A stretch of DNA of 64,000 nt from Alphaproteobacteria bacterium (GCA_038145705.1 JAYQQF010000011.1:43753-107752); one strand, 5' to 3'. Shown: positions 1 to 19,714, counted from the stretch's first letter. Notes: generated from the letters alone by a model not told the origin. Made by a program: numbers and translations.

Positions 1-670
1 GTTTGCGCACGCCGACCCAGTTGGGCTCTTCGACGATCTCGAAGTGCATCTTTTCGATCGGCCGGTAATAGTAGGTGCCCATGTCACCCTTGCCCTTCAG
101 AACAAGCGTATGGGCATGAAGGTAATAAGTGTGGCAGGGGTCGCAGGAGTTTTCCATCACCTGCAGCCAGTTGCAGTCGAGCAGCGGCAGGACGTCGATG
201 CGGCGCACCCCGTCCTTGCGCAGAAGCTGCGCCCAGCGCGGCAGTTCCGGAGCCTCACCGGGCCCCATATAGGTCCACAGCATGCCGCCCAGTTCGCGCA
301 CCGGGTAGGCGCGCTGGCGCACGTGGTTGATCAGCGTCGTGTCCTTGGGCTCGAACGGCATTTCGATGCACTTGCCGGTGCAGTCGAACTTCCACCCGTG
401 GTAGGGACAGCGCAAACCGTCGTCTTCGACGAACCCATACAGGAGCGAAGCGGACCGGTGGCAGCACTGTTCCTCCACCAGTCCGAAACGGCCCGAGCCG
501 TCGCGAAACAGGACCAGTTCTTCGCCCATCACGCGGATTTTCTTTTTCGGATTTTCCGCAGTAAGTTCCGCCGCGGGGCCGACCGGTTGCCAGTAGCGGC
601 GCATCAACTCACCCGCGGGCGTGCCCGCACCGACACGCGTCAACTCGGCATTCTGTTCGTGAGACAGCAT
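1..670 (-). CDS. Rieske [2Fe-2S] non-heme iron oxygenase alpha subunit (partial; C-terminus beyond window start)
   Basis: Minus-strand translation from ATG at 668-670: MLSHEQNAELTRVGAGTPAGELMRRYWQPV...CCHRSASL...CPYHGW Rieske CxH..CxxH motif; N-terminus parallels the two other Rieske proteins in the window. Absent from ORF track because it runs off the edge; the 44..736 plus ORF is its antisense. Confidence 0.8.
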   Translation of the reverse strand, partial: MLSHEQNAELTRVGAGTPAGELMRRYWQPVGPAAELTAENPKKKIRVMGEELVLFRDGSGRFGLVEEQCCHRSASLLYGFVEDDGLRCPYHGWKFDCTGKCIEMPFEPKDTTLINHVRQRAYPVRELGGMLWTYMGPGEAPELPRWAQLLRKDGVRRIDVLPLLDCNWLQVMENSCDPCHTYYLHAHTLVLKGKGDMGTYYYRPIEKMHFEIVEEPNWVGVRK

Positions 671-697
671 GGCTTCCTCCGTTCAGGCGCTTGCAGG

Positions 698-1456
698 CTA
701 GCCTTCGCCTGCCAGCGTCGCGTAGTAGCGCCATGACGACCGGACGTTACCCATCAGCGGCGGCATGGTGCCATCGGACGCGGTGTTTCCTCCACCTTCC
801 CGACCGTAACCCGGAATGAATGTTCTTATATCTTCGTCGGAAATCGGCCGGGGCGTACCCAAAAGATACGCCTCGTAATTCATTTCCGCCAGTTCGTTGA
901 TCTTGATCGCGGCGAGCGTCGCCTCTTCGACCGTGGGGCCAACGGTGGTGATGCCATGACCGCGCATCAGGCAGATGCGGGCGCGCCCCATGGCGGCGGC
1001 GAACTCCTCGCCCAGAAGATCGTTCTTTATCAAGATGGCGCGGTCATAAAGTGCCGGCCCTTCAACGGCAAGCCGCAGGCCCGTCGGGTCGTAAGCACCA
1101 AACACGGGTAAAATCTGTTTTTCCGTAATGGTAAAAAGCACCACGGTTTTCGGATGGACGTGAACGACGCTGTTCACCTCGGGCCGCATCCGGTAGAGCC
1201 AGGAATGGATGAACACTTCCTGCGGCGCCTTAAGGCCATCGGGACCGTCGAGCTTTTCGCCGTCGCCGTCGACACGGATGATTTCGCCCGCTGTCGTGTA
1301 GCGCACGCCCACTTCGTCGCGCCCGCGCGCGCGCACCAGGAAACCGCCGTCGCAACGGGCGCTGATGTGGCCCGTCGCCGCTTTCGTCAGGCCCAGATTG
1401 CCGATGATGCGGCAAGCCTTGGCGACCAGTTCGCGCTGTGCGGCGAATGCATCCAT
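698..1456 (-). CDS. class II aldolase/adducin family protein
   Basis: ORF 698..1630 trimmed to ATG giving MDAFAAQRELVAKACRIIGNLGL...; HVHP metal-binding motif typical of class II aldolase/adducin N-terminal domain. Confidence 0.75.
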   Translation of the reverse strand: MDAFAAQRELVAKACRIIGNLGLTKAATGHISARCDGGFLVRARGRDEVGVRYTTAGEIIRVDGDGEKLDGPDGLKAPQEVFIHSWLYRMRPEVNSVVHVHPKTVVLFTITEKQILPVFGAYDPTGLRLAVEGPALYDRAILIKNDLLGEEFAAAMGRARICLMRGHGITTVGPTVEEATLAAIKINELAEMNYEAYLLGTPRPISDEDIRTFIPGYGREGGGNTASDGTMPPLMGNVRSSWRYYATLAGEG

Positions 1457-1469
1457 CGCGTTCTCCGCC

Positions 1470-2111
1470 CTACTTCGGCAACGGCGTCCAGCCGTACAAC
1501 TCGATCGTCGACTTGCCCTGCTTGAGCGAGGCGATGGTGCGCGATTCCTTTTCTTCGCGCGACTGGGAGGCATCGAGGGCCGCCTTCGCCGCGCCCTGCG
1601 GGATGACGACGACGCCGTCGCGGTCGCCATTGATTATGTCGCCGGGCGCCACATCGACGTTACCGATGCGGATCACTTGCGCCAGAGAACCGCCTTCGTC
1701 CTTGGTCGTGCCCTGGATGGCGAGGCCCCGCGAAAACACGGGGAAGCCGATCTCTTCCAGAAGGTCGGCATCGCGCACGCAGGCATCGATCACCAGACCG
1801 GCGAGCCCGCGCTGCTGCGCGGCATGGGCCATGATTTCGCCGAAATAGCCCGCCTCATACCCGCCGCCGCAATCGACCACGAGGATGTCGCCGGGCTTCG
1901 CCTGGTAGATCGCGCGATGGATGTTGATGTTGTTGAAGGCCTTGGCCACCACGGTGAAGGCCGGCCCGCAGATCTTCCATGCGTTCGAGACCGGCTTGAT
2001 CGCCGCAGGCAAAGCGCCCTTGCGGCCCATAGCTTCATGAATGGTTGCCGAGGGAAACGTCGCCGCTCGCGCGATCGTCGCCGCGTCGGGCCGGGGAAAA
2101 TCGAAACTCAT
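1470..2111 (-). CDS. RraA-like protein (4-hydroxy-4-methyl-2-oxoglutarate aldolase / RNase E regulator family), paralog 1
   Basis: ORF 1470..2420 trimmed to MSFDFPRPDAATIARAATFPSATIHEAMG...; RraA/DlpA fold signature (SxxHEAxG, GDIxxGDxDGVVVIP). Confidence 0.75.
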   Translation of the reverse strand: MSFDFPRPDAATIARAATFPSATIHEAMGRKGALPAAIKPVSNAWKICGPAFTVVAKAFNNINIHRAIYQAKPGDILVVDCGGGYEAGYFGEIMAHAAQQRGLAGLVIDACVRDADLLEEIGFPVFSRGLAIQGTTKDEGGSLAQVIRIGNVDVAPGDIINGDRDGVVVIPQGAAKAALDASQSREEKESRTIASLKQGKSTIELYGWTPLPK

Positions 2112-2115
2112 GGCT

Positions 2116-2769
2116 CTACCTCTTTGTCTGGAGACTGTGATAGCCGTGCTTCTTGCGGGCATCGACCAGCTTCGCGCCCGCCCTGACCTCGGCGACGATG
2201 CGGGCCTCGGCCTCGGCGACCGCGGTGGCGATGTCGAGGACTTCCTTTTCCTTCTCGACCGGCACCACCAGCACGCCGTCGTCGGAGCCGACAAGGATAT
2301 CGCCCGGACGCACCTGAACATCGCCGAGGGACACGGTGACATTGGTGCCGTCGACCTCGACCCGGTCCTTGCCCGTGCGCATGAAGCGCCCGCGCGAGAA
2401 GATCGGGTAGCCGACCTCAAGCGAGCCGGCGACGTCGCGGCACACGCCGTGAATGACAGTGCCCGCGACCCCGCGCGCCTTGGCCGTCGTCGTCAGGATA
2501 TCGCCCCACACGGTGCAGTCGAGGCGGCCCGCATTGTCGAGCACCACGACGCCGCCCGGGGGCACGTCGTCGATGTAATCGCCGACCGTCCCCTTGACGA
2601 TCCCGCAGGGCCGGTATTTCAGAGTGAAGGCGCGGCCCACGACGTGATGGCCATTGGCGAGCGGCGCAAGCCCCTGTGCCATGCCGTGAATGCCGAGCCG
2701 GTCGAGCGCGTCGGAGATCGACGCGCTGGCCAGTTGCTTGAAACCTTCGATAACGGGATCGCTAGCCAT
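2116..2769 (-). CDS. RraA-like protein, paralog 2
   Basis: MASDPVIEGFKQLASASISDALDRLG...GDILVGSDDGVLVVP; same family; 4 nt from paralog 1. Confidence 0.8.
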   Translation of the reverse strand: MASDPVIEGFKQLASASISDALDRLGIHGMAQGLAPLANGHHVVGRAFTLKYRPCGIVKGTVGDYIDDVPPGGVVVLDNAGRLDCTVWGDILTTTAKARGVAGTVIHGVCRDVAGSLEVGYPIFSRGRFMRTGKDRVEVDGTNVTVSLGDVQVRPGDILVGSDDGVLVVPVEKEKEVLDIATAVAEAEARIVAEVRAGAKLVDARKKHGYHSLQTKR

Positions 2770-2770
2770 C

Positions 2771-3439
2771 TTATTTCTTGTCCTTGTTGAGCATCTGTTC
2801 GTAACCGCCGCTTTCCATCACATGGACGATGGATGCGCCGTTGCGCACGGCTTCGGCCATGCGCGCCTCGCGGGCAGCGATTTCCTCGCCCTTGGCGATG
2901 ACCTCTTCGGCGCGCGCCTGCGGAACGATGATCGTGCCGGAACCGTCGGCAACCACGTAATCGCCGGGGTGAACCTGCACGCCCGCGAACTGGATTTCCT
3001 CGTTCACGCTGTCCTGAATGACGCGCCCGCGCGCGGTGATCGGCACCACGCCCTTGGCGTAAACGGGGAATTTTGCCGCCGCCGAATCGTCGATGTCGCG
3101 ACACGCCCCGTCGATGACGATGCCGGCCAAGCCCTTGGTCGCCGCGGCAAGCGACAGCAGCCCGCCCCAGCCAGGCACGTCGGTGCGCCCGGCCAGTTCC
3201 ATCACCAGCACGTCGCCCGGCGCCGCCGCCTCGATCGCCTCGGTGCCGAGGTGACGGGTGGGCTTTTCCACCCCCTGCGGCTTCAGCTTCACCGTGACCG
3301 CGCGCCCGGCGATGCGCGGGCACGGCCACTGCGGGCGAATGCCGAGCGTCGCGCCCTTGAGGCCCAGCGCATCGAGCGCGTCCGACACCGTGCAGGCATC
3401 CAGTTTCGAAAGGCGCTCGACCAGCGCATCACGTGCCAT
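2771..3439 (-). CDS. RraA-like protein, paralog 3
   Basis: MARDALVERLSKLDACTVSDALDALG...GDYVVADGSGTIIVP; same family; 1 nt from paralog 2. Confidence 0.8.
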   Translation of the reverse strand: MARDALVERLSKLDACTVSDALDALGLKGATLGIRPQWPCPRIAGRAVTVKLKPQGVEKPTRHLGTEAIEAAAPGDVLVMELAGRTDVPGWGGLLSLAAATKGLAGIVIDGACRDIDDSAAAKFPVYAKGVVPITARGRVIQDSVNEEIQFAGVQVHPGDYVVADGSGTIIVPQARAEEVIAKGEEIAAREARMAEAVRNGASIVHVMESGGYEQMLNKDKK

Positions 3440-3495
3440 TTGGCAATCTCCCCCAGATCAAAAACCGATTTTGACGATACTACAGGACGGCGCGT

Positions 3496-5229
3496 TCACC
3501 GCAGCCCCGAAAATCCGAAACGGCGGCCGATCAGCCGCGCGATGATCGCCATGCATCCGGTCATCAGCACGATCAGCACGCCGACGACGGCGGCGGCCTC
3601 GAAGGTGCCGTCGACGATGTGATCGACCTGCAGCATGGCAAGCGGCCGGTTCTCGGCCGTCACCAGCATGGCGATGGTGGAAACGTTGCGCGCCGCCGAA
3701 ACGAAGGTAAGTAGTGCCACAGCAACCAGCACGGGACCGAGCAGCGGCAGCACGATGCGCCGGAACGTATAGGCCCAGGAGCCGCCCGCGATGAAGGAAG
3801 CCTCTTCCAGATCGCGACCGAGCTGCACCATGTTGCTTTTGACGAGCTGCACGCCCGTCGAAATGGAATTGAGGATACAGGCGACGATGAGCACGACGAG
3901 CGTGCCGTAAAGCGGCTGAAACAGATCGACGTTGAGGAACACCCACAGAAGTGCCAGGCCGAGGATGATCCCGGGCAGGCTGGCGGGCAGCCACGACAGG
4001 AAATCGAGAACCCCGCGCGCGGCATAACGCGTGCGCACGGAAATATAGGCGACCAGCGAATACCAGAAGACGCCGATCAGGGCGGCGGAACCGCCCATGA
4101 GAAGCGTGTTCGTCGTCGCGCGCAGCATCGGCGGGTCGGTCAGGACTGTTTCCCAGTGCTCGAAGGTCCAGGCGTCCTCGAGGCCGAAATGGCCGTAAAG
4201 GCTCATGAAGGTGCCCATCAGCAGGAACACGATGGGCACCACCGTGATCAGCGTGCCGAAGGCCGCGATAATGCCGAACACCGGCCAGCGCCAGCCGCGC
4301 AGACGCAGGATGTTGAAGGTGAAGCTGGAGGTGACCGTGACGTAGCTGCGCTTGTGCGACAGGTACTGCTGCCAGAAGATCAGCGGCAGCATGCTGACCA
4401 GGATGGCGAGCCCCAGCACCGTCGAGACGCCGAACATCGGCGGATCTTCCTGAATGAACTGGTAGATCTTGGTCGAGAACACATAGAAGTTGTCGGGCGG
4501 CCCCAGAATCAGCTCGATCTCGAAGGATTCGAGCGAATGGATCAGCGAAATGCACAGCGTGATCATGAACGCCGGCATCAGCACGGGAATGACGATGCGC
4601 CGAAGCGTTCCGAGCGGACTTGCCCCCGAAATGCGCGAGGCTTCCTCCATCGCGCCGTCGAGGTTGCGAAAGGCCGGCGACAGGAAGATGTACTTCGCCG
4701 CCACCGAGCGCGCCGCGATATGGGCGAAGATGATGCCGGAGAAGCTGTAGATATTGAACGGCCCCTCCTCCATCCCGAACAGGGCGACGGCGGCCTGGTT
4801 GGCAAGACCGAACTGCGGATCGAAGAGCAGGATCCAGCCCATCAGCACCGGCAGGGCGGGCAGGAAGAAGGCGACCCAGAAGAACGCATCGATCAGCTTC
4901 TTGCCGGGAAGATCGGTGCGCGCCACCGCCCAGGCGATCAGGATCGCCGCCGGGAAGGCGATGATCTCGGTGGCGATCACGCGCTTGAAGGTATTGAGGA
5001 TGGAGGGGACCATGCCCGGCGCGCTCCACGCCGTGCGCCACAATTCCAACCCGTAGTACTTCTTGCCGTCGGCGCCCTCGACCAGGAAGCTCGCGTCGAT
5101 CAGCAGTGCCAGCGGATAGGCGACCAGCATCAGCATCACGAACAGCACGACGCTGGCGCCGACCGTGCCCGGACGCAGGCGCCGCAGGAAGCCCGGCTTT
5201 GCGGCCGGAGTGATGCCTACTTCGGCCAT
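3496..5229 (-). CDS. ABC transporter permease, fused two-domain iron(III)/spermidine-type (FbpB-like)
   Basis: ORF 3496..5340 trimmed to MAEVGITPAAKPGFLRRL...; about 12 TM segments, two EAA-type permease repeats; 13-nt overlap with upstream ATPase stop. Confidence 0.8.
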   Translation of the reverse strand: MAEVGITPAAKPGFLRRLRPGTVGASVVLFVMLMLVAYPLALLIDASFLVEGADGKKYYGLELWRTAWSAPGMVPSILNTFKRVIATEIIAFPAAILIAWAVARTDLPGKKLIDAFFWVAFFLPALPVLMGWILLFDPQFGLANQAAVALFGMEEGPFNIYSFSGIIFAHIAARSVAAKYIFLSPAFRNLDGAMEEASRISGASPLGTLRRIVIPVLMPAFMITLCISLIHSLESFEIELILGPPDNFYVFSTKIYQFIQEDPPMFGVSTVLGLAILVSMLPLIFWQQYLSHKRSYVTVTSSFTFNILRLRGWRWPVFGIIAAFGTLITVVPIVFLLMGTFMSLYGHFGLEDAWTFEHWETVLTDPPMLRATTNTLLMGGSAALIGVFWYSLVAYISVRTRYAARGVLDFLSWLPASLPGIILGLALLWVFLNVDLFQPLYGTLVVLIVACILNSISTGVQLVKSNMVQLGRDLEEASFIAGGSWAYTFRRIVLPLLGPVLVAVALLTFVSAARNVSTIAMLVTAENRPLAMLQVDHIVDGTFEAAAVVGVLIVLMTGCMAIIARLIGRRFGFSGLR

Positions 5230-6329
5230 AGGCTGAGCGCGTCCTTCGGAATGTGAAGCGGGACGGTATCGCCCTCGCGCAGACGTTCGGCACGCGGTAC
5301 GTAGACCAGCAGGTTCGCGCCACCGACGCGGACATGGCATTCAAAACGATCGCCCACGAACAGCAAGGTCTCGACCCGGCCTTCGAAGGCGTTGTGGTCG
5401 GCGCCCGCCGCAGCCCGGCCGATGCGCACGCTTTCGGGCCGGATGGCCGCCGTCAGCCTGGCGCCCGGAGCGGGAACGACCCCGCAGAAGGCGGAGGAAA
5501 CGAGCGAGATGCCGCCGTCACCGAGCCGGACCTCGGCCTCGGCGCCGTTCAGACCCGCGACTTCGATCTCGATGCGCGTCGACAGGCCGATGAAATCGCG
5601 CACGAAGGGATTGGCGGGATTTTCATAGAGATCCACCGGATCGCCTACCTGCTCGACCCGGCCCGCATCCATCACCGCGACGCGATCGGCAAGGGACAGG
5701 GCTTCGGACTGGTCATGGGTGACGAGAATGACCGTGACGCCGACCTGGCGCTGCAGTTGTTTCAGTTCCACGCGCATCTGCTCGCGCAGCTTGACGTCGA
5801 GGTTGCTGAACGGCTCGTCCAGCAACAGCACGTCGGGCTTGTAGACGAGCGCGCGCGCCAGTGCCACGCGCTGCTGCTGGCCGCCCGACAGCGTCGGCGA
5901 CGGCCGGTCCTCGAACCCGCCAAGGCCGACCTGGGCGAGGGTCTCGCGCACGGCGACCTCGATCTCCGCCGACGGCAGGTTGCGCAGGCGCAGTGGATAG
6001 GCCACGGTTTCCCCTACCGTCAGGTGCGGCCAGATCGCATAGGACTGGAACACCATGCCCATGTTGCGCTTCTGGGGCGGAACGAAAATGTCGTCCTCGG
6101 CCGAATAGAGAACATTGCCGTTGAGCGTGATGGTGCCCGTATCGGGGGAATCGAGGCCGGCGATCTGGCGCAGGGTCGTCGACTTGCCGCAGCCGGACGG
6201 CCCCAGAAGGGCAAAGACCTCGCCCTCAACGATGTCGAGGGTCAGGTCGTCGACTGCTCGGAAACTGCCGAACAGCTTGGAAATATGGGCAAGCCCGAGA
6301 AACGGCTTGCCGCGGTCCGCGGAAACGAT
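5217..6329 (-). CDS. ABC transporter ATP-binding protein (FbpC/PotA-like); start codon non-canonical or mutated
   Basis: Frame is open from stop at 6375-6377 through 5217. Walker A GPSGCGKST, LSGGQQQRV signature and C-terminal TOBE/MOP-like domain present. No ATG/GTG/TTG upstream of Walker A; SD GGGGAGG sits 6 nt before ATC at 6327-6329, which aligns with the paralog's (11136) N-terminus. Confidence 0.6.
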   Translation of the reverse strand: MVSADRGKPFLGLAHISKLFGSFRAVDDLTLDIVEGEVFALLGPSGCGKSTTLRQIAGLDSPDTGTITLNGNVLYSAEDDIFVPPQKRNMGMVFQSYAIWPHLTVGETVAYPLRLRNLPSAEIEVAVRETLAQVGLGGFEDRPSPTLSGGQQQRVALARALVYKPDVLLLDEPFSNLDVKLREQMRVELKQLQRQVGVTVILVTHDQSEALSLADRVAVMDAGRVEQVGDPVDLYENPANPFVRDFIGLSTRIEIEVAGLNGAEAEVRLGDGGISLVSSAFCGVVPAPGARLTAAIRPESVRIGRAAAGADHNAFEGRVETLLFVGDRFECHVRVGGANLLVYVPRAERLREGDTVPLHIPKDALSLWPK

Positions 6330-11123: not shown

Positions 11124-11135
11124 TCACGGCGCAAC

Positions 11136-12227: not shown

Positions 12228-13942
12228 CCTTGCCAGAAGCGGGCTCGCGCGCCCGCCGCCTCTTTGAATTCCGCACGCTGCTGTTCGCGGCGGTGCTGCT
12301 GACGACGCTGTTCCTCGTCCTCTATCCCGTCGTCCTGATCGTCTTTTACAGTTTTTCCGCAGCGGAAACCGGCGCCGATTTCGTCTTCGGGCTGGACGCC
12401 TGGCAGCGCGCCCTGCGCGAGCCGGCGATGTTCGGCACCATCATCAATACCGTGAAGCTGCTGGTCGCCATCAACCTGATTTCCTTTCCCGTCGCCATCG
12501 TCATTTCATGGGTGCTGGCTCGCACGGATATCCCGTGGCGCGGCGGGCTGGAGTTCATGTTCTGGATTTCGTTCTTCCTGCCGTCGCTCTCGGTGACGCT
12601 CGGCTGGATCATGTGCCTTGACCCCGAATACGGGCTCTTGAACAAGCTGGTGATGTTCATCTTCCCCTTCATCGAGGAAGCGCCGTTCAACATCTATTCG
12701 TTCTGGGGCATCGTGTGGGCGCATCTCGGCGCCAATGCCATCGCGGTCAAGGTGATGCTGCTGACGCCGACCTTCCGCAACATCGATTCCTCGCTCGAGG
12801 AAGCTTCGCGGGTGGCAGGCGCCGGCCGTCTCGGCACCCTTGCGCGTATCGTCGTGCCCGCCATGGCGCCGGCGCTGATCGCCATCCTGCTGATGGCGAT
12901 GATCCGCGCCATGCAGTCCTTCGAAATCGAGTTGGTTCTGGGACCGGCGTTCCAGTTCTACGTCTATTCGACGAAGGTCTATACCCTGATCGCGCAGGAG
13001 CCGCCGGAATTCGGCTCCGCCTCCGCGCTTGCAACGCTGGGCCTCGCCGCCATCCTGCCGCTGATCTTCGCCCAGCGCTGGATCACCTCGCGCCGCCAGT
13101 ACGCGACGCTGACAGGCAAGCTGCAGACCCAGCCCGTCCGGCTCGGGCCGTGGCGTATACCGGTATTCCTCGCCGTGCTCACGGTCGTGCTGCTGCTGAC
13201 CGTGGTGCCGCTGGTCTTCGTCGGGCTGGCCTCGACCATGAAGCTGTTCGGCTTCTTCAACATTCCCGATCCCTACACCTTCGATCACTGGGTCACGGTG
13301 CTGACCGACGAAACCTTCGGTCAGTCGGTGACGAACACGCTGGGCATGGCGGGCGGGGCCGGAATCCTGTCGGTCGTGCTTTTCTCGCTGGTCGCCTATT
13401 TCACCGTACGCACCACTTTCAAGGCGCGCGCCGTTCTCGACTTCGTGTCCTGGCTGCCCTTCGCTGTCCCCGGCATCCTGTTCGGCGTCGGCCTCTTGTT
13501 CGTGTTCCTGGAATCGCCGCTGTTCCGGCCGCTTTACGGCACCATGTGGCTGCTGATCCTTGCCACCGTCATCAGTTCGATGACGCTCGGCGTCCAGATC
13601 ATCAAGTCGAACATGATGCAGCTCGGCAACGAGCTGGAAGAAGCCTCGCGCGTCGCAGGCGCTACCTGGTGGCATACCTTTACCCGCGTCGTGCTGCCGA
13701 TCATGGTGCCGGTGCTGCTGCTGGTCGGCATCATGAACTTCATTTCGGCGGCGCGCGACATCGCCTCGGTGGCGCTGGTGGCGACGGCGGAAACCAAGAC
13801 CCTCGCCCTTCTGCAGCTCGACTACATGGTGGAGGGCCGCTACGAGGCGGCCTCGGTCGCATCCTTCGTCGTCATCGTCCTGTCGACGGGGATCGCCCTT
13901 CTCGCCCGCGCGCTTGGCTTGCGCATCGGCATTCGCAACTAG
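12215..13942 (+). CDS. ABC transporter permease, fused two-domain (FbpB-like)
   Basis: ORF 12104..13942; GTG at 12215 gives (M)AEIALPEAGSRARRL, mirroring MAEVGITPAAKPGFLRRL of paralog 3496..5229, with the same 13-nt overlap with the ATPase stop. Confidence 0.75.
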   Translation: MAEIALPEAGSRARRLFEFRTLLFAAVLLTTLFLVLYPVVLIVFYSFSAAETGADFVFGLDAWQRALREPAMFGTIINTVKLLVAINLISFPVAIVISWVLARTDIPWRGGLEFMFWISFFLPSLSVTLGWIMCLDPEYGLLNKLVMFIFPFIEEAPFNIYSFWGIVWAHLGANAIAVKVMLLTPTFRNIDSSLEEASRVAGAGRLGTLARIVVPAMAPALIAILLMAMIRAMQSFEIELVLGPAFQFYVYSTKVYTLIAQEPPEFGSASALATLGLAAILPLIFAQRWITSRRQYATLTGKLQTQPVRLGPWRIPVFLAVLTVVLLLTVVPLVFVGLASTMKLFGFFNIPDPYTFDHWVTVLTDETFGQSVTNTLGMAGGAGILSVVLFSLVAYFTVRTTFKARAVLDFVSWLPFAVPGILFGVGLLFVFLESPLFRPLYGTMWLLILATVISSMTLGVQIIKSNMMQLGNELEEASRVAGATWWHTFTRVVLPIMVPVLLLVGIMNFISAARDIASVALVATAETKTLALLQLDYMVEGRYEAASVASFVVIVLSTGIALLARALGLRIGIRN

Positions 13943-14925
13943 GTATCGCGGAACTCCGGCAGAAACAGGTCATCGACGGGGATTTCCCTGTCGGTAAAGC
14001 CCTGCTCGTGCATGTAGCGCACCAGCGTCGCCAGAGTCTTGCGGTTGGCGGCGAGACCATAGGGCCATGGATCGCTGCCGAACAGGCGCTCGATCTCCGC
14101 CAGATCGTCGAGCAGCCACGGCAGCATCACGTGCTGGCCGTTCTGGGAGGCAAGCCTTCGCCGCGCCTCGGCCTTGGCGCGCCCGCAGGCGTCAAAAAAA
14201 CGCGCCGCCAGCCACGGGTTGGCCTCGTGCATGGCGCGGCGAATAACGACGAGATGCATGATCGGGAAAATTCCGGTGCGGCGGAAATAGTCGGCCTCGC
14301 GCGCCCGGAAATCGGGGAAGAGCCGCACGATTTCGGGATGCGCCGCGACCGCTTCGTCAACGAAGGTACCGAGAATGGCGTCGATTTCCCCCGCCGCCAG
14401 CAGTTCGGCCAGGGAACGCCCGCTGTCGTTCGCCTCGATCGCGGGCGGATGGCGCATGGGGCTTGCCGACGGATCGCCATGCCCGCCCGGCTGCATGACG
14501 GAACCTTCGATCCAGCGGAAGCTCGCGCAATCGACGCCGTATTCATCGGCAAGCATGCCGCGAATCCAGATCGCCGCGGTCTGGGTATAGAGCGGCACGC
14601 CGACGCGCCGGCCTTCCAGATCGCGGGGCTCGCGCACCGGGCCGTCCCTGCGCACGCAGATGAAGCCGTGGCGGAACATCCGCGACGGGAAAACCGGCAA
14701 CGCGACGAAGGGTTCCTTTCCCCAGTCGCGCAGCGCAATGAACTCGGAGCAGGAGAATTCGGACACGTCGAAGTCATCGCCGCCCGCCAGCCGGTCGAAA
14801 ATGAGCCGCGGCGGCCACATGGTCTCGCCCGCGATCTCGACCCCTTCGATACGCACGGAGCCGTCATGCAACCCCTCGAACCTGTCGTAGGGCCCGGAAG
14901 CGAAGTTCAGGCGAAGCGGCGGCAT
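13939..14925 (-). CDS. 4,5-dihydroxyphthalate decarboxylase-like protein (PhtD-like, PBP/NMT1 fold), paralog 1
   Basis: 328 aa, no signal peptide; conserved PVFPSRMFRH and GEIDA blocks shared with paralogs at 35064 and 37855; family assignment from recall, not searched. Confidence 0.5.
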   Translation of the reverse strand: MPPLRLNFASGPYDRFEGLHDGSVRIEGVEIAGETMWPPRLIFDRLAGGDDFDVSEFSCSEFIALRDWGKEPFVALPVFPSRMFRHGFICVRRDGPVREPRDLEGRRVGVPLYTQTAAIWIRGMLADEYGVDCASFRWIEGSVMQPGGHGDPSASPMRHPPAIEANDSGRSLAELLAAGEIDAILGTFVDEAVAAHPEIVRLFPDFRAREADYFRRTGIFPIMHLVVIRRAMHEANPWLAARFFDACGRAKAEARRRLASQNGQHVMLPWLLDDLAEIERLFGSDPWPYGLAANRKTLATLVRYMHEQGFTDREIPVDDLFLPEFRDT

Positions 14926-15013
14926 CGGCGGCGGTACTCCCTGTTGGCGGCGCCAGCATAAGGGCGCGCGCCGCTGCTTGCCAGCGGGAGGGGCGCTGGA
15001 CTAGGCTGCCCCC

Positions 15014-15883
15014 ATGTCCCTGACCGCAGCCAGCAACGCCGACGCCCCCTTCTCGATCGAGCCCATCGGGCCGACCATCGGGGCGGAGATTCACGGCCTC
15101 GACCTCCGCCAGCCGCTCAATGGGGCCACCTTCGCGGCACTTGAGGCGGCGCTGATCGAACAGAAGGTCATCTACCTGCGCGACCAGGCCATGACCACCG
15201 CCGAGCACGTCGCCTTCGGCCGTCGCTTCGGCGACCTGGAAGTTCATCCCTTCCGCCCGGAAGGCGAATTTCCGGAAATCATGGTGCTGGACAACCACAA
15301 GGACAACCCGGTGCTGTCCACCGACGTCTGGCATTCGGACACCACGTTCCGCGAATGCCCGACCAAGTATTCGATCCTGCGCTGCCTGCGCATGCCCGCC
15401 GTCGGCGGCGATACCCTGTGGGCGGACATGTGCGCGGCCTATGACGGGCTCAGCCCCGCCATCAGGAAGCTGATCGACGGCCTCGAAGCCGTCCACGATT
15501 TCCAGAATTTCCGCGCGCTTTACGGCAAGGACGAAGAGAGCCAGAAGAAGCTGCGCCGGATGGAAGAGCTTTACCCGAACCCGACCCATCCCGTGGTGCG
15601 CACGCATCCCGTGAACGGGCGCAAGGTGCTCTACGTCAATCCGCAGTTCACGCTTTACATCAAGGGCATGAACGAGGGCGAGAGCAAGGCCCTGCTGGAA
15701 TTGCTCTACGAGCAGACCCACGTGCCGGAATACCAGTTCCGCCTGCGCTGGCGGCCGGGCACCATCGTGCTGTGGGACAACACGTCGACCCAGCACTACG
15801 CGGCCAACGACTATTATCCGAACCGCCGCACCATGGAGCGCGTCGCCGTCATCGGCGACAGGCCCTTCTACCGGCCGTCCTGA
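15014..15883 (+). CDS. TauD/TfdA-family Fe(II)/2-oxoglutarate-dependent dioxygenase
   Basis: 289 aa; HxD...H facial triad context (VWHSDTTF, RVAVIGDRPFY), typical taurine dioxygenase-like length. Confidence 0.75.
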   Translation: MSLTAASNADAPFSIEPIGPTIGAEIHGLDLRQPLNGATFAALEAALIEQKVIYLRDQAMTTAEHVAFGRRFGDLEVHPFRPEGEFPEIMVLDNHKDNPVLSTDVWHSDTTFRECPTKYSILRCLRMPAVGGDTLWADMCAAYDGLSPAIRKLIDGLEAVHDFQNFRALYGKDEESQKKLRRMEELYPNPTHPVVRTHPVNGRKVLYVNPQFTLYIKGMNEGESKALLELLYEQTHVPEYQFRLRWRPGTIVLWDNTSTQHYAANDYYPNRRTMERVAVIGDRPFYRPS

Positions 15884-15892
15884 CTTCCGGTT

Positions 15893-16669
15893 CTAGCGCT
15901 GTCGCAGGGGCACGCGTTCGCGGGCAAACAGCGGGTTGCCCGCGCCTTCGGCGCGGGCGAGCTTGCGGCAGTAATAATCGTAGAGAACCTGTCCGCCGAC
16001 GATGGCCGGATCGAGCTGGGTGCCTTCTTCCAGCTTGTGGGCCAGTTCGCTTTCCGGCGGCGTCGTGAACTTCAGGTTCGAGCCGTTGATGATCAGACTT
16101 TCCTGGCACATTTTCTCGACGGCGATGGCAATCAGCACCGGGTCCTTGATCGTCGGGCCACAGGTGACCAGCCCGTGGTTGCGCAGCAGCACCGCGTGGT
16201 GGGGACCCATGACCTCGACCATTTCGCACGCCATTTCCTGGGTGCCGACCAGGCCCGAGGAATCTTCGAAGCGCGGCGTGCGCAGGGGCTGCGTCGTTGC
16301 CCGCGGCACGATGGTGGCAAGCGGCTCTTCCGATGCCGAATAAATGGACGCATAGAACGGATGGGTGTGCGCGGTGGCGTCGATATCGGGGCGCAGGCGC
16401 ATCAGCTCCGAATGGATTGGCCATTCGCCGTGCGGCTTGCCGTCGCCCGCGAGCTGGCGGCCCTCGAAGTCGAGCAGCACGAAATCGCGGCGATCGACCA
16501 CCTCGCCGAGAGCGATGCCGGCGCGCTTCATCCACAAGCCACGGCCTTCGGGGTCGCGCAGCGCCATGTGGCCGACGACTCGGTCGCCATGGCCTTCGAG
16601 CTCCAGCACCCGGCAGGCCCGCGCCAGTTCATCGAGATCTGCGGCGAGCGCGTTGCTCATCTCGGCCAT
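15893..16669 (-). CDS. class II aldolase/adducin family protein (paralog of 698..1456)
   Basis: ORF 15893..16768 trimmed to MAEMSNALAADLDELARACRVLELEGHGD...; HTHP metal site. Confidence 0.75.
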   Translation of the reverse strand: MAEMSNALAADLDELARACRVLELEGHGDRVVGHMALRDPEGRGLWMKRAGIALGEVVDRRDFVLLDFEGRQLAGDGKPHGEWPIHSELMRLRPDIDATAHTHPFYASIYSASEEPLATIVPRATTQPLRTPRFEDSSGLVGTQEMACEMVEVMGPHHAVLLRNHGLVTCGPTIKDPVLIAIAVEKMCQESLIINGSNLKFTTPPESELAHKLEEGTQLDPAIVGGQVLYDYYCRKLARAEGAGNPLFARERVPLRQR

Positions 16670-16782
16670 CGGTGTCTCTCCTCCATTTTCCGACCCGCAC
16701 GCTAGCGGCGGGGGCCGGACCTGTCCAGTGCGGCGGTTTGCCGCGAACGAAGGCTGGGATATGCTCATCAGGCAGGGAGAAA

Positions 16783-18375
16783 ATGACCAAAAAACCCAAC
16801 TTCGTTCTGTTCATCACCGACCAGCACCGGGCCGATCACCTCGGCTGCTACGGCAATAAACTGCTGCGCACGCCCGCCATCGACGCGCTCGCGGCGCGCG
16901 GCACGCGCTTCGACAATTTCCATGTCGCCAGCCCCGTCTGCATGCCCAACCGCGCCTCCCTGATGACGGGACGGATGCCGTCGCTGCATGGCGTGCGGCA
17001 CAACGGCATTCCGCTCTCCTTCGAGCACGTCACCTTCGTCGAACTGCTGGCTGCGGCAGGCTATGCAACGGCGCTCGCCGGCAAGTCGCACCTGCAGAAC
17101 TTCACCGGCCGGGCGCCCAATTTCGATTTCAAGGAACGCCCCGGCTACGCCGCCCCGCCGCCCGACCTGCGCGAAGCGGACAGGCGCCAGCGCCGGGGCG
17201 CGCCATACGAATCGGAAAACGACGCGCTCTGGCGCGAGGGCGGCCACGGGGTGGCGCTGCCTTTTTACGGCTTCGCCCGCGCCGATATCTGCACCGGCCA
17301 CGGCGACCAGGTCGGCGGCGATTACCGCAACTGGCTGGCCGCACGCCACCCCGACCCCGACAGCCTGACCGGTCCCGCCAATGCCCTGCCCGCAGGCAAC
17401 CGTAAAGCGCCGCAGTGCTGGCGCACCCGCGTGCCCGAGGAACTTTACCCGACGGCCTATGTCGAGGACCGCGCCGCGGATTTCCTGCGCATCCATGCCA
17501 CAGCGGACGATGGACGACCGTTCTTTCTGCAGGTGTCCTTTCCCGACCCCCATCATCCGTTCACGCCGCCCGGCCGGTTCTGGGACATGTATGATCCGCG
17601 CGATATCGAATTGCCCGAAAATTTCTCCTCGGGCGACGTGGCACCGCTCAAGCATTTGCGCGCCGAACTTGCCGCGGGCAGCGCCGTGCGCGACCAGCCG
17701 ACCCTGCCTTGGGCGGCGACGGAAGATGAAGCGCGCGTCATCATCGCCGCCACCTACGGCATGATCGCCATGGTAGACGAAGCCATCGGCCGCCTGACGG
17801 CGCTGATCAACGAGCTTGGCTTCGGCGACGACACGGTAGTGATGTTCACCGCCGATCACGGCGATTACATGGGCGATCACGGGCTGATGACCAAGTACCT
17901 GCTGCACTACCGCAGCCTGACGCGGGTGCCGTTCATCGTTGCCGATCCGGGCCGCAAGGCCGGCGACACGCGTGGCGATCTCGCCTCCACCCTCGACATT
18001 CCGGCCTCGATCCTTGGCCGCGCCGGTCTGCAGCCGTTCAACGGATTGCAGGGGCGCGATCTGTTCGACGGTGCCGTGGGCGCGCCGGACAGCCTGTTGA
18101 TCGAGGAGGACGCCTCGCTGCCGATGTTCGGAGAAAACAGTCGCGAGCGCGTGCGCACGCTGGTCACGGGCCGCTGGCGGCTGACGCACCATCAGGGGGC
18201 AGTCCCGGATGCCGCGTGGTGGGAGCTTTACGACCTCGCGATCGATCCCGGCGAAAGCCGCAATCTGTGGAATGATCCATCAGCCCAACAAGTCGCCCGC
18301 GAGCTGATGGCGCGCATGATCGCGCGCATGACCGAACTGCAGGACACGAGCCCGCTGCCCACGGGCCGTGCCTGA
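16783..18375 (+). CDS. Cys-type sulfatase (arylsulfatase family, formylglycine-dependent)
   Basis: ORF 16297..18375 trimmed to ATG 16783 (RBS AGGGAGA): MTKKPNFVLFITDQHRADHLGCYGN...; CMPNRASLMTGR = CxPxR FGly motif; FTADHGD metal site. Confidence 0.8.
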   Translation: MTKKPNFVLFITDQHRADHLGCYGNKLLRTPAIDALAARGTRFDNFHVASPVCMPNRASLMTGRMPSLHGVRHNGIPLSFEHVTFVELLAAAGYATALAGKSHLQNFTGRAPNFDFKERPGYAAPPPDLREADRRQRRGAPYESENDALWREGGHGVALPFYGFARADICTGHGDQVGGDYRNWLAARHPDPDSLTGPANALPAGNRKAPQCWRTRVPEELYPTAYVEDRAADFLRIHATADDGRPFFLQVSFPDPHHPFTPPGRFWDMYDPRDIELPENFSSGDVAPLKHLRAELAAGSAVRDQPTLPWAATEDEARVIIAATYGMIAMVDEAIGRLTALINELGFGDDTVVMFTADHGDYMGDHGLMTKYLLHYRSLTRVPFIVADPGRKAGDTRGDLASTLDIPASILGRAGLQPFNGLQGRDLFDGAVGAPDSLLIEEDASLPMFGENSRERVRTLVTGRWRLTHHQGAVPDAAWWELYDLAIDPGESRNLWNDPSAQQVARELMARMIARMTELQDTSPLPTGRA

Positions 18376-18415
18376 AAAACAAGAAGGGCGTCGAACACCA
18401 GAGGGGGAGCCGCTC

Positions 18416-19714
18416 ATGCTGTCATCGGAACTGAACGATCTGATTACCCTGACCGGGCCCGGCACGCCGGGCGGCAACATGTTTCGCCGCTTCTGGATAC
18501 CCGCCTGCCTGTCGAAGGAAGTGGCCGAGCGCGAGGGCCCGCCCGTGCGCGTACGCCTGCTGGGCGAAAAGCTCGTCGCCTTCCGCGGCCGCGACGGCCG
18601 CGTAGCACTCATCGGCGAGCACTGCCCGCACAGGGGCGCCTCGCTCTATTTCGGGCGAAACGAGGACGGCGGCCTGCGCTGCCTCTATCATGGCTGGCTG
18701 GTCAACGCCGAGGGCCGCGTGACCGATGCCCCCGCCGAACCCGATCCTTCCGTCATCTGCCGCGACGCGCGGGGCATCGCCTATCCCACCCATGAAGTGG
18801 CGGGGATGGTTTTCACCTACATGGGCCCGCCCGAGAAAAAACCGCTGTTCCCGGCCTACCGCTTCACCACCGCGCCCGAAAATCACATGTACGTCACCAA
18901 GTCGCTGCAGGACTGCAATTACCTGCAGGGGCTGGAAGGGGAATGCGATTCGGCACATCTGTCCTTCCTGCACCGGGCGCTGCGCGGCCCGCTCGCCAAC
19001 CGCACCATCTTCACCAGCCGCAAGCCGCAGTATTCATATGAGCGCACCGACTTCGGCATCCGCCTGATCGCCACCCGCGAAACCGACGATGACCGGCTTT
19101 ACGTCCGGATATCGTCCTTCGTGCTGCCCTATGGCTGCTGGGTACCGGCGCGCAACCGCGAACTTCATATGCACGTGCCCGCCGACGACACCCACAGCTG
19201 GCGCTTCGATCTGGGGGTGCTCGATCACCCTGTTTCCGAGACTCCCAGCATCGACGACCGCGACCAGTTTCTGGACGAGGATTTCCGCAAGATTCCCAAC
19301 ATGTCGAACGATTACCTGCAGGACCGCGAGGTCCAGAAGCTCGACAATTTTTCAGGCATGAAAGGGTTTCTCGCGCAGGATTCGGCGGTCACCGAAAGCA
19401 TGGGGCCGCGCTTCGACCGCTCGCAGGAGTACCTCGGCCAGAGCGATGCCGGCATCGTCGCCGTGCGCAACCTGATGGTGAAGACCATTCGCGATCTGGA
19501 AAAGGGTATCGAGCCGCCGCAGGTGGTGACGAGGGCCGAAGACAACGTCTTCACCCATGTCGATACCTGTCAGGTCACCATCGACAAGGGCGAGGACTGG
19601 CGCAGGCACCTGCCCCATGTCGCCGCACCCAAGGCGGTGCCGGGGGCGCCATTGCCGCCCTTCCGCGATCCCGAGGGCAGCCTCAGGCGCGAAACCGGGA
19701 CCCACGTGCGTTAG
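18416..19714 (+). CDS. Rieske [2Fe-2S] non-heme iron oxygenase alpha subunit (alpha-only), paralog 3
   Basis: ATG 18416 preceded by GAGGGGGAG SD; MLSSELNDLITLTGPGTPGGNMFRRFWIP...CPHRGASL...CLYHGW; 40 nt downstream of sulfatase stop. Confidence 0.85.
   Translation: MLSSELNDLITLTGPGTPGGNMFRRFWIPACLSKEVAEREGPPVRVRLLGEKLVAFRGRDGRVALIGEHCPHRGASLYFGRNEDGGLRCLYHGWLVNAEGRVTDAPAEPDPSVICRDARGIAYPTHEVAGMVFTYMGPPEKKPLFPAYRFTTAPENHMYVTKSLQDCNYLQGLEGECDSAHLSFLHRALRGPLANRTIFTSRKPQYSYERTDFGIRLIATRETDDDRLYVRISSFVLPYGCWVPARNRELHMHVPADDTHSWRFDLGVLDHPVSETPSIDDRDQFLDEDFRKIPNMSNDYLQDREVQKLDNFSGMKGFLAQDSAVTESMGPRFDRSQEYLGQSDAGIVAVRNLMVKTIRDLEKGIEPPQVVTRAEDNVFTHVDTCQVTIDKGEDWRRHLPHVAAPKAVPGAPLPPFRDPEGSLRRETGTHVR

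What the first reader, a model, noticed from the sequence alone, without database searches (positions are those of the whole stretch)
1..19714. Three paralogous alpha-only Rieske oxygenases and no reductase/ferredoxin partner in 64 kb
All three (1..670 partial, 6516..7796, 18416..19714) share an N-terminal block (TxxGPGTPxGxxMRRYWxP) and CxH..CxxH. Their size (~430 aa) matches alpha3-type oxygenases (GbcA/Stc2/CntA/VanA-like) that need a separate FNR-type reductase. None is encoded nearby, so a shared distal reductase is implied. Their partners differ: an aldolase/RraA set, a family-1 SBP, and a sulfatase. This suggests one oxygenase scaffold recruited into three different catabolic routes.
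Basis: partly seen in the sequence, partly recalled or inferred. Interest (0 to 1): 0.5.

Follow-up and report, generated by a model that had tools for sequence, protein, structure and literature searches.

The report
Three Rieske oxygenases lacking nearby reductase
An uncultured alphaproteobacterium carries three old, diverged copies of a phthalate-dioxygenase-type iron enzyme in one conserved gene cluster for breaking down aromatic acids, and their electron-supplying partner is encoded elsewhere in the genome, which is ordinary for this enzyme family.

Summary
The three genes are RO1 (2..670, minus strand, cut by the window edge), RO2 (6516..7796) and RO3 (18416..19714). All encode alpha-only Rieske oxygenases (Pfam Rieske + LigXa_C). 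All metal ligands are intact, the proteins are 31-39% identical to each other, and each is under purifying selection (dN/dS 0.01-0.2).

Their nearest solved relatives are phthalate and isophthalate dioxygenases (E 1e-56 to 1e-78), not GbcA/Stc2/CntA/VanA. The phthalate-binding residues are not conserved. In an NJ tree the three fall into separate uncharacterised clades.

No ferredoxin, reductase or beta subunit is encoded in the 64 kb. None is encoded in the 5 kb beyond the left edge either, which I recovered from a 100% identical contig.

The "three different routes" reading is weak:
- RO1 and RO2 are divergently transcribed and share one ABC transporter split between their operons.
- All three genes co-occur in the syntenic locus L001, and parts of the same cluster recur in several other metagenomic genomes.
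- The sulfatase next to RO3 belongs to a lineage-specific four-gene block.

Relatives carry two to five such oxygenases per locus, and no RO1/2/3-type locus has a reductase. LigXa, whose ferredoxin and reductase genes are scattered, is the precedent. Verdict: new members of a known kind, low interest.

The parts
2..670 (-). RO1: N-terminal 223 aa of a 391-aa alpha-only Rieske oxygenase. It belongs to the RO1-type clade, which JGI auto-names '5,5'-dehydrodivanillate O-demethylase'. The gene runs off the left edge of the window.
   Evidence: Translation. Pfam Rieske E 1e-21. The full-length gene is on the 100% identical contig L022 at 5132-6307. Best PDB hits for the L001 orthologue are 7FHR at 1e-57 and 7FJL at 1e-55. 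dN/dS 0.013-0.2.
698..1456 (-). Class II aldolase-family protein, probably a dihydroxy-aromatic-acid decarboxylase (PhtC-like).
   Evidence: Pfam Aldolase_II E 7e-37. NCBIfam 3,4-dihydroxyphthalate decarboxylase NF053537 scores 190.3 bits against a cut-off of 200. Orthologues at 54-58% identity sit next to RO1/RO3-type genes in L020 and L021.
1470..2111 (-). RraA/LigK-like protein 1 (213 aa). My first gene call had the start at 2030, which was too short.
   Evidence: Pfam RraA-like E 3e-40. NCBIfam 4-carboxy-4-hydroxy-2-oxoadipate aldolase PRK09262 scores 166 bits against a cut-off of 179. The start was corrected against the L001 orthologue.
2116..2769 (-). RraA-like protein 2 (217 aa).
   Evidence: Pfam RraA-like E 1e-35.
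2771..3439 (-). RraA-like protein 3 (222 aa).
   Evidence: Pfam RraA-like E 3e-38. The RraA triplet recurs in L001, L022 and L025.
3496..5229 (-). Fused double-domain ABC permease of transporter 1.
   Evidence: Pfam BPD_transp_1, two stretches, 577 aa.
5217..6329 (-). ABC ATPase of transporter 1 (ABC_tran + TOBE_2). It probably starts at a non-canonical ATC codon.
   Evidence: Pfam E 2e-35. There is no ATG/GTG/TTG upstream of the Walker A motif, and GGAGG-N6-ATC is conserved in L006.
6407..6472 (.). Conserved non-coding block in the divergent RO1-operon/RO2 control region. It contains TTGACC and TTCGAAAGCGATTTC, and is probably a promoter plus an operator.
   Evidence: The block is nearly invariant in the window, L001, L006 and L007, while the flanks diverge. 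The composite motif occurs only here and at 9958-9979 in the window, but the pattern was derived post hoc. No sigma-70 consensus match.
6516..7796 (+). RO2: 426-aa alpha-only Rieske oxygenase of the RO2-type clade.
   Evidence: Pfam Rieske + LigXa_C. PDB 7FJL at 4e-74, 36% identity to PDO_KF1. Metal ligands are conserved but the phthalate determinants are not. dN/dS 0.07-0.15.
7838..8959 (+). Family-1 solute-binding protein, the missing binding component of transporter 1.
   Evidence: Pfam SBP_bac_8/SBP_bac_1. The RO2-SBP pair is also present in L001, L002, L003, L005 and the P0065 locus; the divergent permease/ATPase is present in L001, L004 and the P0065 locus.
8982..9890 (-). LigB-type (class III) extradiol ring-cleavage dioxygenase.
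   Evidence: Pfam LigB E 9e-21. NCBIfam class III extradiol families all score below their cut-offs.
9996..13942 (+). ABC transporter 2: binding protein (9996-11123), ATPase (11136-12227) and fused permease (12215-13942).
   Evidence: Pfam. In L020 RO3 follows this transporter directly; in L001 one 324-aa SBP-like gene lies between them.
13939..18375 (.). Lineage-specific four-gene block: NMT1-like binding protein (13939-14925, -), TauD-family dioxygenase (15014-15883, +), class II aldolase (15893-16669, -) and sulfatase (16783-18375, +).
   Evidence: Pfam. TauD scores 306.6 bits against 313 for taurine dioxygenase. Arylsulfatase PRK13759 scores 230 bits against 481. The block is present in L006, L007 and L019 and absent from L001 and L020.
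18416..19714 (+). RO3: 432-aa alpha-only Rieske oxygenase of the RO3-type clade. It starts 40 bp after the sulfatase stop codon, with no plus-strand terminator between them.
   Evidence: Pfam Rieske + LigXa_C E 3e-41. PDB 9INA (IPDO) at 1.6e-78, 39% identity. dN/dS 0.05-0.12. Terminator scan.
19722..20441 (-). GntR/FCD-family regulator, conserved downstream of RO3.
   Evidence: Pfam GntR + FCD. It holds the same position in L019 and L020.

Best explanation
The three genes encode three anciently diverged subfamilies of alpha-only Rieske non-heme-iron oxygenases of the phthalate dioxygenase / isophthalate dioxygenase / LigXa clade. They belong to one conserved aromatic-acid catabolic cluster of about 25 kb in an uncultured alphaproteobacterium.

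Shown:
- All three have intact Rieske and mononuclear-iron sites and are under purifying selection.
- They lie among two ABC uptake systems, PhtC-like decarboxylases, a LigB-type extradiol dioxygenase, three LigK/RraA-like proteins and bicupins.
- There is no beta subunit, ferredoxin or reductase within about 69 kb.

Inferred:
- Each oxygenase hydroxylates or O-demethylates a different but related anionic aromatic substrate brought in by the adjacent ABC systems.
- The products are funnelled through decarboxylation and extradiol cleavage to a LigK-type aldol split. This resembles the way Comamonas funnels the three phthalate isomers to protocatechuate.
- NAD(P)H electrons reach the Rieske clusters through a partner encoded elsewhere and probably shared. 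That partner is either a PDR/VanB-type FMN-[2Fe-2S] reductase or a ferredoxin plus ferredoxin reductase, as for LigXa.
For: - Domain content and ligands.
- Closest solved relatives PDO_KF1, RO_CH34 and IPDO_KF1.
- Three separate clades in the NJ tree.
- dN/dS 0.01-0.2.
- Absence of partners: Pfam on all genes, motif scans and tblastn controls.
- Off-window extension from the identical contig L022.
- Synteny and recurrent co-clustering of RO1/2/3-type genes with PhtC-like decarboxylase, LigB, the RraA triplet, GFO_IDH_MocA and ABC systems, with no reductase within +-10 kb, in L001, L004, L005, the P0065 locus, L006/L007/L019, L020, L021, L025 and L027.
- The only locus with an adjacent VanB-type reductase (L015) carries an oxygenase that groups with canonical PDO_KF1.
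- Precedent: ligXa (SLG_07770), ligXc (SLG_08500) and ligXd (SLG_21200) are scattered in Sphingobium SYK-6 (PMC12997858; PMC6874591).
- PDO and IPDO need a dedicated reductase (PMC8649396; PMC12445078).
- The PhtC-like and LigK-like neighbours score just under their NCBIfam cut-offs.
Against: - No substrate is identified.
- There is no cis-dihydrodiol dehydrogenase (GFO_IDH_MocA) in the first 20 kb of the window, although relatives L004, L005, L020, L021, L025 and L027 have one. True dihydroxylation is therefore not assured, and monooxygenation or O-demethylation is equally possible.
- The existence and type of the distal reductase could not be checked, because the rest of the genome is not available here.
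- Co-regulation of all three genes is not shown. The shared motif links only the RO1/RO2 region to the LigB/transporter-2 region, it was found post hoc, and it is poorly conserved at the second site.
- RO3 now sits behind a sulfatase and may be expressed with it.
- The NJ tree has no support values and uses partial PDB sequences.
Confidence: 0.72

Rival explanations
1. One reading: one oxygenase scaffold was recruited independently into three unrelated catabolic routes (an aldolase/RraA route, a binding-protein-linked route and a sulfatase route), all served by one distal FNR-type reductase.
For: The immediate neighbours do differ. The three proteins are only 31-39% identical and fall into three clades, so different substrates are likely. 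RO3 is 40 bp downstream of a sulfatase with no terminator between them.
Against: RO1 and RO2 share a divergent control region and one split ABC transporter. All three genes co-occur in syntenic locus L001, and RO1/2/3-type genes co-cluster in other combinations elsewhere. The sulfatase block is absent from L001 and L020. LigB and LigK-like lower-pathway genes lie between the oxygenases.
Confidence: 0.2
2. These subfamilies do not use a dedicated Rieske-oxygenase reductase. They draw electrons from a general cellular ferredoxin or flavodoxin, or from an unrecognised partner encoded in the cluster, which would explain why a reductase is absent from every RO1/2/3-type locus examined.
For: No reductase lies within +-10 kb in any RO1/2/3-type locus. 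The sample covers roughly ten loci from alphaproteobacterial and unassigned metagenomic genomes. The one oxygenase with a linked reductase groups with PDO_KF1 instead.
Against: Unlinked partners are already documented for LigXa. No candidate electron-transfer protein recurs in the clusters. The Rieske domain and the bridging Asp are canonical. Absence from +-10 kb says nothing about the rest of the genome.
Confidence: 0.06
3. The genes are decaying or orphan remnants that no longer function because their reductase was lost.
For: No partner is encoded nearby. The ATPase of the adjacent transporter lacks a canonical start codon.
Against: All reading frames are intact and all metal ligands are conserved. 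dN/dS is 0.01-0.2 against orthologues at dS 0.3-1.5. The cluster is conserved in several genomes.
Confidence: 0.02

Closest known systems
Phthalate 4,5-dioxygenase PDO_KF1 / PDO_DB01 (PhtA/OphA2; PDB 7FJL, 7V25, 7V28), a class IA two-component Rieske oxygenase
   Same: Alpha-only architecture. Rieske domain followed by an enlarged catalytic domain. The same N-terminal block. Conserved CxH/CxxH, D178, H181, H186 and D343. It is the best or second-best PDB hit for all three proteins (33-37% identity). Arg231 and Arg244 are retained in RO2 and RO3.
   Different: Arg207 has no counterpart in RO2 or RO3. Phe278 becomes Arg, Phe280 becomes Asp and Ser182 becomes Leu. RO1 (through its L001 orthologue) lacks Arg231 and Arg244. 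The proteins fall in separate clades. The cognate reductase PhtB is named as the enzyme's dedicated partner, but no reductase is encoded here.
Isophthalate dioxygenase IPDO_KF1 (PDB 9INA/9IOY)
   Same: It is the best PDB hit for RO3 (E 1.6e-78, 39% identity). It is an alpha3-only enzyme of similar size.
   Different: IPDO is encoded in the iph cluster together with its reductase, a transporter and a dehydrogenase. RO3 has no reductase and no dehydrogenase nearby. The two lie in different clades.
LigXa, the oxygenase of 5,5'-dehydrodivanillate O-demethylase in Sphingobium sp. SYK-6 (with LigXc ferredoxin and LigXd reductase)
   Same: The C-terminal domain is assigned to Pfam LigXa_C (137-142 bits for RO2 and RO3). 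RO1-type proteins are auto-named after LigXa by JGI. The oxygenase gene sits in a catabolic cluster without its redox partners, which are encoded at distant loci.
   Different: The neighbours differ: ABC transporters, an RraA triplet and PhtC-like decarboxylases here, against LigZ, LigY, DdvK and DdvT there. No DDVA pathway genes were identified.
RO_CH34 (PDB 7FHR), a PDO-like oxygenase of Cupriavidus metallidurans CH34 that does not turn over phthalate
   Same: It is the best PDB hit for the RO1 orthologue (E 1e-57). It is a PDO-like enzyme with altered phthalate-binding residues and an unknown substrate.
   Different: It lies in a different clade. Its genomic context was not examined.
VanA, GbcA, Stc2 and CntA
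   Same: They are alpha-only Rieske oxygenases that need a separate reductase.
   Different: They are much more distant. VanA_C scores 17 bits against a cut-off of 23.5. CntA scores E 3e-4 for RO2 and matches the Rieske domain only. DdmC scores 1e-16. GbcA, Stc2 and VanA sequences were not compared directly.

Membership tests
Rieske non-heme iron oxygenase, alpha (catalytic) subunit | Rieske [2Fe-2S] motif CxH-X(15-20)-CxxH and a Pfam PF00355 score above the gathering threshold. | tested here: met
   RO1 scores 77.1 bits, RO2 66.7 and RO3 64.3, against a cut-off of 20.3. The motif is found in the six-frame scan.
Rieske non-heme iron oxygenase, alpha (catalytic) subunit | Mononuclear iron 2-His-1-carboxylate triad and the bridging Asp next to the first His. 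| tested here: met
   D178, H181, H186 and D343 (PDO_KF1 numbering) are conserved in RO2, RO3 and the L001 orthologue of RO1. The window fragment of RO1 covers D178, H181 and H186.
PDO / IPDO / LigXa clade (alpha-only, class IA-like) | LigXa_C-type catalytic domain (PF19301), with nearest solved relatives PDO, IPDO and RO_CH34. | tested here: met
   PF19301 scores 137.3 bits (RO2) and 142 bits (RO3) against a cut-off of 27. The RO1 fragment scores only 16.4 bits, but the full-length gene on L022 carries PF19301 in the precomputed table. PDB E-values range from 1e-46 to 1e-78.
PDO / IPDO / LigXa clade (alpha-only, class IA-like) | No beta (small) subunit. | tested here: met
   No Ring_hydroxyl_B in any gene of the window or in L022.
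Canonical two-component PDO/IPDO systems | A cognate FMN-[2Fe-2S] reductase encoded in the same operon or cluster. | tested here: not met
   No Fer2/NAD_binding protein by Pfam, by motif scan, or by tblastn with the L015 reductase at E<=10. One search places the IPDO reductase in the iph cluster. One search names phtA and phtB as the PDO oxygenase and reductase.
Phthalate 4,5-dioxygenase sensu stricto | Substrate-binding residues Arg207, Arg244, Arg231, Ser179, Ser182, Phe278, Phe280 and Phe339 (PMC8649396). | tested here: not met
   In RO2 and RO3, Arg207 is absent, Phe278 is Arg, Phe280 is Asp and Ser182 is Leu, while Arg231, Arg244 and Phe339 are kept. The RO1 orthologue keeps Arg207 but lacks Arg231 and Arg244.
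LigXa (DDVA O-demethylase oxygenase) | Orthology to SLG_07770, a DDVA-pathway context (LigZ, LigY, DdvK/T), and a LigXc/LigXd-type ferredoxin and reductase. | not tested
   Only the Pfam domain name and JGI automatic names for RO1-type proteins are available. The neighbouring genes differ from the DDVA cluster described.
VanA / GbcA / Stc2 / CntA-type oxygenases | VanA_C (PF19112) or an equivalent catalytic domain above threshold, or close similarity to solved CntA or DdmC. | tested here: not met
   VanA_C scores 17.1-17.6 bits against a cut-off of 23.5. For RO2, CntA scores E 2.8e-4 over the Rieske domain only and DdmC scores 1e-16.

The most novel reading that the evidence does not exclude
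RO1-, RO2- and RO3-type enzymes are three uncharacterised, widespread subfamilies. In uncultured Alphaproteobacteria and other environmental bacteria they form multi-paralogue swarms of up to five genes per 21 kb. These swarms consistently lack a linked reductase and are coupled to Fbp-like ABC importers, PhtC-like decarboxylases and an RraA triplet. Together they could encode an undescribed pathway for an abundant natural pool of aromatic polycarboxylates or methoxylated or sulfonated aromatic acids, possibly driven by a non-dedicated electron donor.
Probability: 0.12. Interest if true: 0.5.

Novelty: new member of a known kind. Interest (0 to 1): 0.2.

Why it matters
If the reading is right, the locus adds three uncharacterised subfamilies to the phthalate-dioxygenase/LigXa clade. 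It also gives a defined gene set to test for substrates: importers, oxygenases, decarboxylases, a ring-cleavage enzyme and aldolases. That is useful for annotating aromatic-carbon turnover in uncultured aquatic and soil bacteria, and for finding new demethylases or dioxygenases for lignin or plasticiser conversion.

It does not challenge current understanding. Unlinked, shared redox partners for Rieske oxygenases are well documented, and paralogue-rich catabolic islands are common.

Tried and rejected
- **Fusion test.** The 847-aa ORF 5253..7796 looked like an N-terminal extension of RO2. Its upstream 421 aa have no Pfam hit, and the opposite strand encodes an ABC ATPase (E 2e-35). It is a shadow ORF.
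- **Source contig.** An exact look-up of RO2 found nothing. L022, found later through RO1, proved 100% identical to window 1..5801 and gave 5 kb of extra flank. The 343-kb contig listed for P0241 could not be retrieved.
- **Hidden small ferredoxin genes.** Six-frame scans for plant-type, adrenodoxin-type, CoxS-type, Rieske-type, 3Fe/4Fe and rubredoxin motifs in ORFs of 45 aa or more found only the three oxygenases and one low-complexity false hit at 32902-33117.
- **Weak tblastn hit.** The CoxS-type Fer2 query hit 27836-27898 at E 0.06. This lies inside the NMT1-like gene and is not a remnant.
- **Shared operator.** The composite TTCGAAA...CGATTTC occurs twice in the window against 0.01 expected. 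The pattern was derived from those two sites, and the second site is poorly conserved in L006, L007 and L001. I treat it as weak evidence.
- **Promoter scans.** Sigma-70 consensus scans found nothing.
- **NCBIfam.** It gave no informative equivalogue for the oxygenases, only far sub-threshold hits such as a methylsterol monooxygenase model.
- **Phthalate dioxygenase assignment.** The automatic JGI name for RO2/RO3-type proteins is rejected on active-site residues.


Full report

Yes. The window is about 65% G+C and dense with shadow ORFs, so I called genes with a codon-usage model.

The three oxygenase genes are:
- RO1, 2..670 on the minus strand. This is the N-terminal 223 aa; the gene runs off the left edge.
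- RO2, 6516..7796 on the plus strand, 426 aa.
- RO3, 18416..19714 on the plus strand, 432 aa.

Pfam finds a Rieske domain in all three. It finds a LigXa_C catalytic domain in RO2 and RO3 at E about 1e-40.

The Rieske ligands are present in all three. So are the bridging Asp and the 2-His-1-carboxylate iron site, shown for the C-terminal part of RO1 through its L001 orthologue.

It is shared with PDO_KF1, RO_CH34 and IPDO_KF1, so it marks the clade rather than these three genes.

Full-length identities are 34% (RO1-RO2), 31% (RO1-RO3) and 39% (RO2-RO3). These are old paralogues.

Against orthologues, dN/dS is 0.01-0.2 at dS 0.3-1.5. All three genes are maintained by selection.

**2. Is a partner really missing?**

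I ran Pfam on every called gene of the window. There is no Fer2, FAD_binding_6, NAD_binding_1, real Pyr_redox_2, Rieske ferredoxin or Ring_hydroxyl_B. Intergenic gaps are too short to hide a gene, apart from regions I checked by eye.

Six-frame motif scans for all common iron-sulfur ferredoxin types and for the GGxGxxP NAD site found only the three oxygenases.

The scan has a positive control. It picked up a reductase immediately downstream of a 39%-identical oxygenase in locus L015. Pfam confirms that protein as Fer2 + NAD_binding. tblastn with it finds nothing in the window even at E<=10. A CoxS-type Fer2 protein from L020 also has no counterpart.

The 847-aa ORF 5253..7796 is not a reductase fusion. 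The opposite strand encodes an ABC ATPase, and the plus-strand extension has no domain.

Contig L022 is 100.000% identical to window 1..5801 and extends 5,060 nt past the left edge. It carries the rest of RO1 (391 aa), two bicupins, a binding protein and a further partial cupin ORF. About 69 kb is therefore free of redox-partner genes.

**3. What family is it?**

The best solved relatives are:
- PDO_KF1 (7FJL): RO2 at 4e-74, RO3 at 2e-76.
- IPDO_KF1 (9INA): RO3 at 1.6e-78.
- RO_CH34 (7FHR): the RO1 orthologue at 1e-57.

The next tier (DdmC, SxtT, NdmA and carbazole dioxygenase) scores about 1e-12 to 1e-17. CntA scores 3e-4 for RO2. VanA_C is below its Pfam cut-off.

The genes therefore belong to the phthalate dioxygenase / LigXa clade, not to the GbcA/Stc2/CntA/VanA groups.

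They are not phthalate dioxygenases. Of the residues shown to bind phthalate (PMC8649396):
- RO2 and RO3 have no counterpart of Arg207.
- In RO2 and RO3, Phe278 is Arg, Phe280 is Asp and Ser182 is Leu.
- RO2 and RO3 keep Arg231, Arg244 and Phe339.
- The RO1 orthologue keeps Arg207 but lacks Arg231 and Arg244.

The retained arginines suggest anionic substrates. That is an inference.

I built an NJ tree from sampled homologues and the three PDB sequences. RO1-, RO2- and RO3-type proteins fall into three separate clades. PDO_KF1 groups with the L015 oxygenase, the only one with a linked reductase. IPDO and RO_CH34 lie apart. The tree has no support values and is only indicative.

**4. Genomic setting**

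The closest genomes are uncultured Alphaproteobacteria. In L006 (MAG SFB_Oligo_Co_118) RO2 is 95% identical at the protein level, and the DNA is 90.6% identical and collinear with window 3..17761. In L007, RO2 is 87% identical.

L001, a JGI metagenome contig at about 81% DNA identity, carries all three oxygenases in the same order.

The RO1 operon, reading from the window's left edge on the minus strand, holds:
- RO1
- a class II aldolase-family protein that scores 190 bits against the 200-bit cut-off for 3,4-dihydroxyphthalate decarboxylase
- three RraA/LigK-like proteins, the first scoring 166 bits against 179 for CHA aldolase
- a fused ABC permease
- an ABC ATPase

RO2 is transcribed divergently and is followed by the solute-binding protein that this transporter otherwise lacks. 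The two operons therefore share one importer.

The control region contains a roughly 65-nt block that is almost invariant in four genomes, while its flanks diverge.

A LigB-type extradiol dioxygenase and a second complete ABC system follow.

In L020 RO3 comes directly after that second transporter. In L001 one 324-aa SBP-like gene lies between them. In the window lineage (window, L006, L007, L019) a four-gene block has been inserted there: an NMT1-like binding protein, a TauD-family dioxygenase, a class II aldolase and a sulfatase. The sulfatase 'partner' of RO3 is thus lineage-specific.

**5. Wider pattern**

RO1-, RO2- and RO3-type genes recur together in other combinations:
- L004: two RO2-type genes.
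- L005: one RO2-type plus two RO1-type.
- L021: two RO1-type plus one RO3-type.
- L025 (a Rhodospirillales MAG): an RO1-type and a second LigXa_C oxygenase, with the RraA triplet, a cupin, a binding protein and a TauD.
- L027: five LigXa_C oxygenases in 21 kb.

Typical companions are PhtC-like decarboxylases, GFO_IDH_MocA dehydrogenases, LigB, and ABC or NMT1-type binding proteins.

None of these loci, nor the P0065 locus, has a reductase within +-10 kb.

The canonical PDO and IPDO systems work with a dedicated reductase. For IPDO that reductase is encoded in the same cluster. LigXa gives the Pfam domain its name. It is served by a ferredoxin and a reductase encoded at distant loci: SLG_07770, SLG_08500 and SLG_21200.

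**6. Most likely mechanism**

Shown: three intact, selected alpha-only Rieske oxygenases sit in one conserved uptake-and-catabolism cluster with no local redox partner.

Inferred:
- Each enzyme oxidises a different member of a related set of anionic aromatic compounds imported by the adjacent ABC systems. The reaction is dihydroxylation or O-demethylation.
- The products are decarboxylated by the PhtC-like class II aldolase-family proteins.
- The ring is cleaved by the LigB-type dioxygenase or the bicupins.
- The cleavage product is split by LigK-like enzymes.
- Electrons come from NAD(P)H through a partner encoded in trans and probably shared. That partner is either PDR/VanB-type or a ferredoxin plus reductase.

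One caveat applies. The window has no GFO_IDH_MocA-type dihydrodiol dehydrogenase near the oxygenases, which leaves monooxygenation or demethylation as likely as dihydroxylation.

**7. Verdict**

- The architecture is alpha-only.
- The paralogues are old.
- The partner is distal.

It is imprecise about the family. Its idea of three unrelated routes is not supported.

These are new, uncharacterised members of a known enzyme clade, arranged in a way that already has a documented precedent. The finding is sound annotation-level biology of low surprise. Its main value is as a defined target for substrate discovery.

Noticed in passing
window 5217-6374 (-): The ABC ATPase of transporter 1 has no ATG/GTG/TTG upstream of its Walker A motif. 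A strong GGAGG is followed 6 nt later by an in-frame ATC, in the window and in L006. L001 has GTG one codon further on. The gene probably uses a non-canonical ATC start.
   Followed up: partly
window 25405-27819 (+): A molybdopterin hydroxylase large subunit (804 aa, xanthine/CO/aldehyde dehydrogenase family) has no [2Fe-2S] small subunit or FAD subunit anywhere in the window. The related locus L020 keeps a CoxS-like Fer2+Fer2_2 gene (L020:12787-13269) between the GntR and TctC genes, which the window lacks. This is a second multi-component oxidoreductase here without its local electron-transfer partners.
   Followed up: partly
window 13939-18375: A four-gene block holds an NMT1-like binding protein, a TauD-family dioxygenase (306.6 bits against 313 for taurine dioxygenase), a class II aldolase and a sulfatase. 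It is present in the window, L006, L007 and L019 but absent from L001 and L020. It looks like an insertion between ABC transporter 2 and RO3. However, a TauD gene also sits inside the related catabolic cluster of L025, so it may not be a simple sulfur-scavenging module.
   Followed up: partly
window 6407-6472 and 9958-9979: A roughly 65-nt non-coding block upstream of RO2 is nearly invariant in four genomes. It contains TTCGAAAGCGATTTC. A similar TTCGAAA..CGATTTC lies in the LigB/transporter-2 intergenic region, where it is less well conserved. It may be a shared operator.
   Followed up: partly
window 13939-14925, 27816-28739, 35064-36059, 37855-38865; 20518-21627, 30152-31159, 31179-32186: There are many stand-alone periplasmic binding-protein genes (four NMT1-like, three TctC-like) with no adjacent membrane components. 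Some score below their Pfam cut-offs. Together with the UbiD, TPP-enzyme, bicupin, amidohydrolase and hydantoinase genes, most of the window (about 1-57 kb) reads as one large catabolic island.
   Followed up: no
L027:3311-18868; also L021, L005, L025: Relatives carry swarms of LigXa_C-type Rieske oxygenases: five in 21 kb in L027, three each in L021 and L005. They sit with GFO_IDH_MocA dehydrogenases and class II aldolases but no reductase. In L027 a nitroreductase-family gene abuts one oxygenase, and a Fer4 protein lies at the locus edge.
   Followed up: no
window 1470-3439 (-): Three tandem RraA/LigK-like paralogues (213, 217 and 222 aa) form a conserved triplet, also seen in L001, L022 and L025. 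This suggests a hetero-oligomeric aldolase or decarboxylase rather than redundancy.
   Followed up: no
window 53608-54969 (+) and 52897-53949 (-): A second TauD-family gene has its domain at residues 165-442 of a long ORF, so the real start is near 54100. It lies next to an Amidohydro_2 gene. The long upstream extension overlaps that neighbouring gene and is probably spurious.
   Followed up: no
window 60673-63998: tRNA-Ser(CGA) at 60673-60762 (-) is followed by L21, L27, Obg and ProB. The catabolic island therefore abuts core chromosomal genes, so the window is chromosomal rather than plasmid-borne.
   Followed up: no
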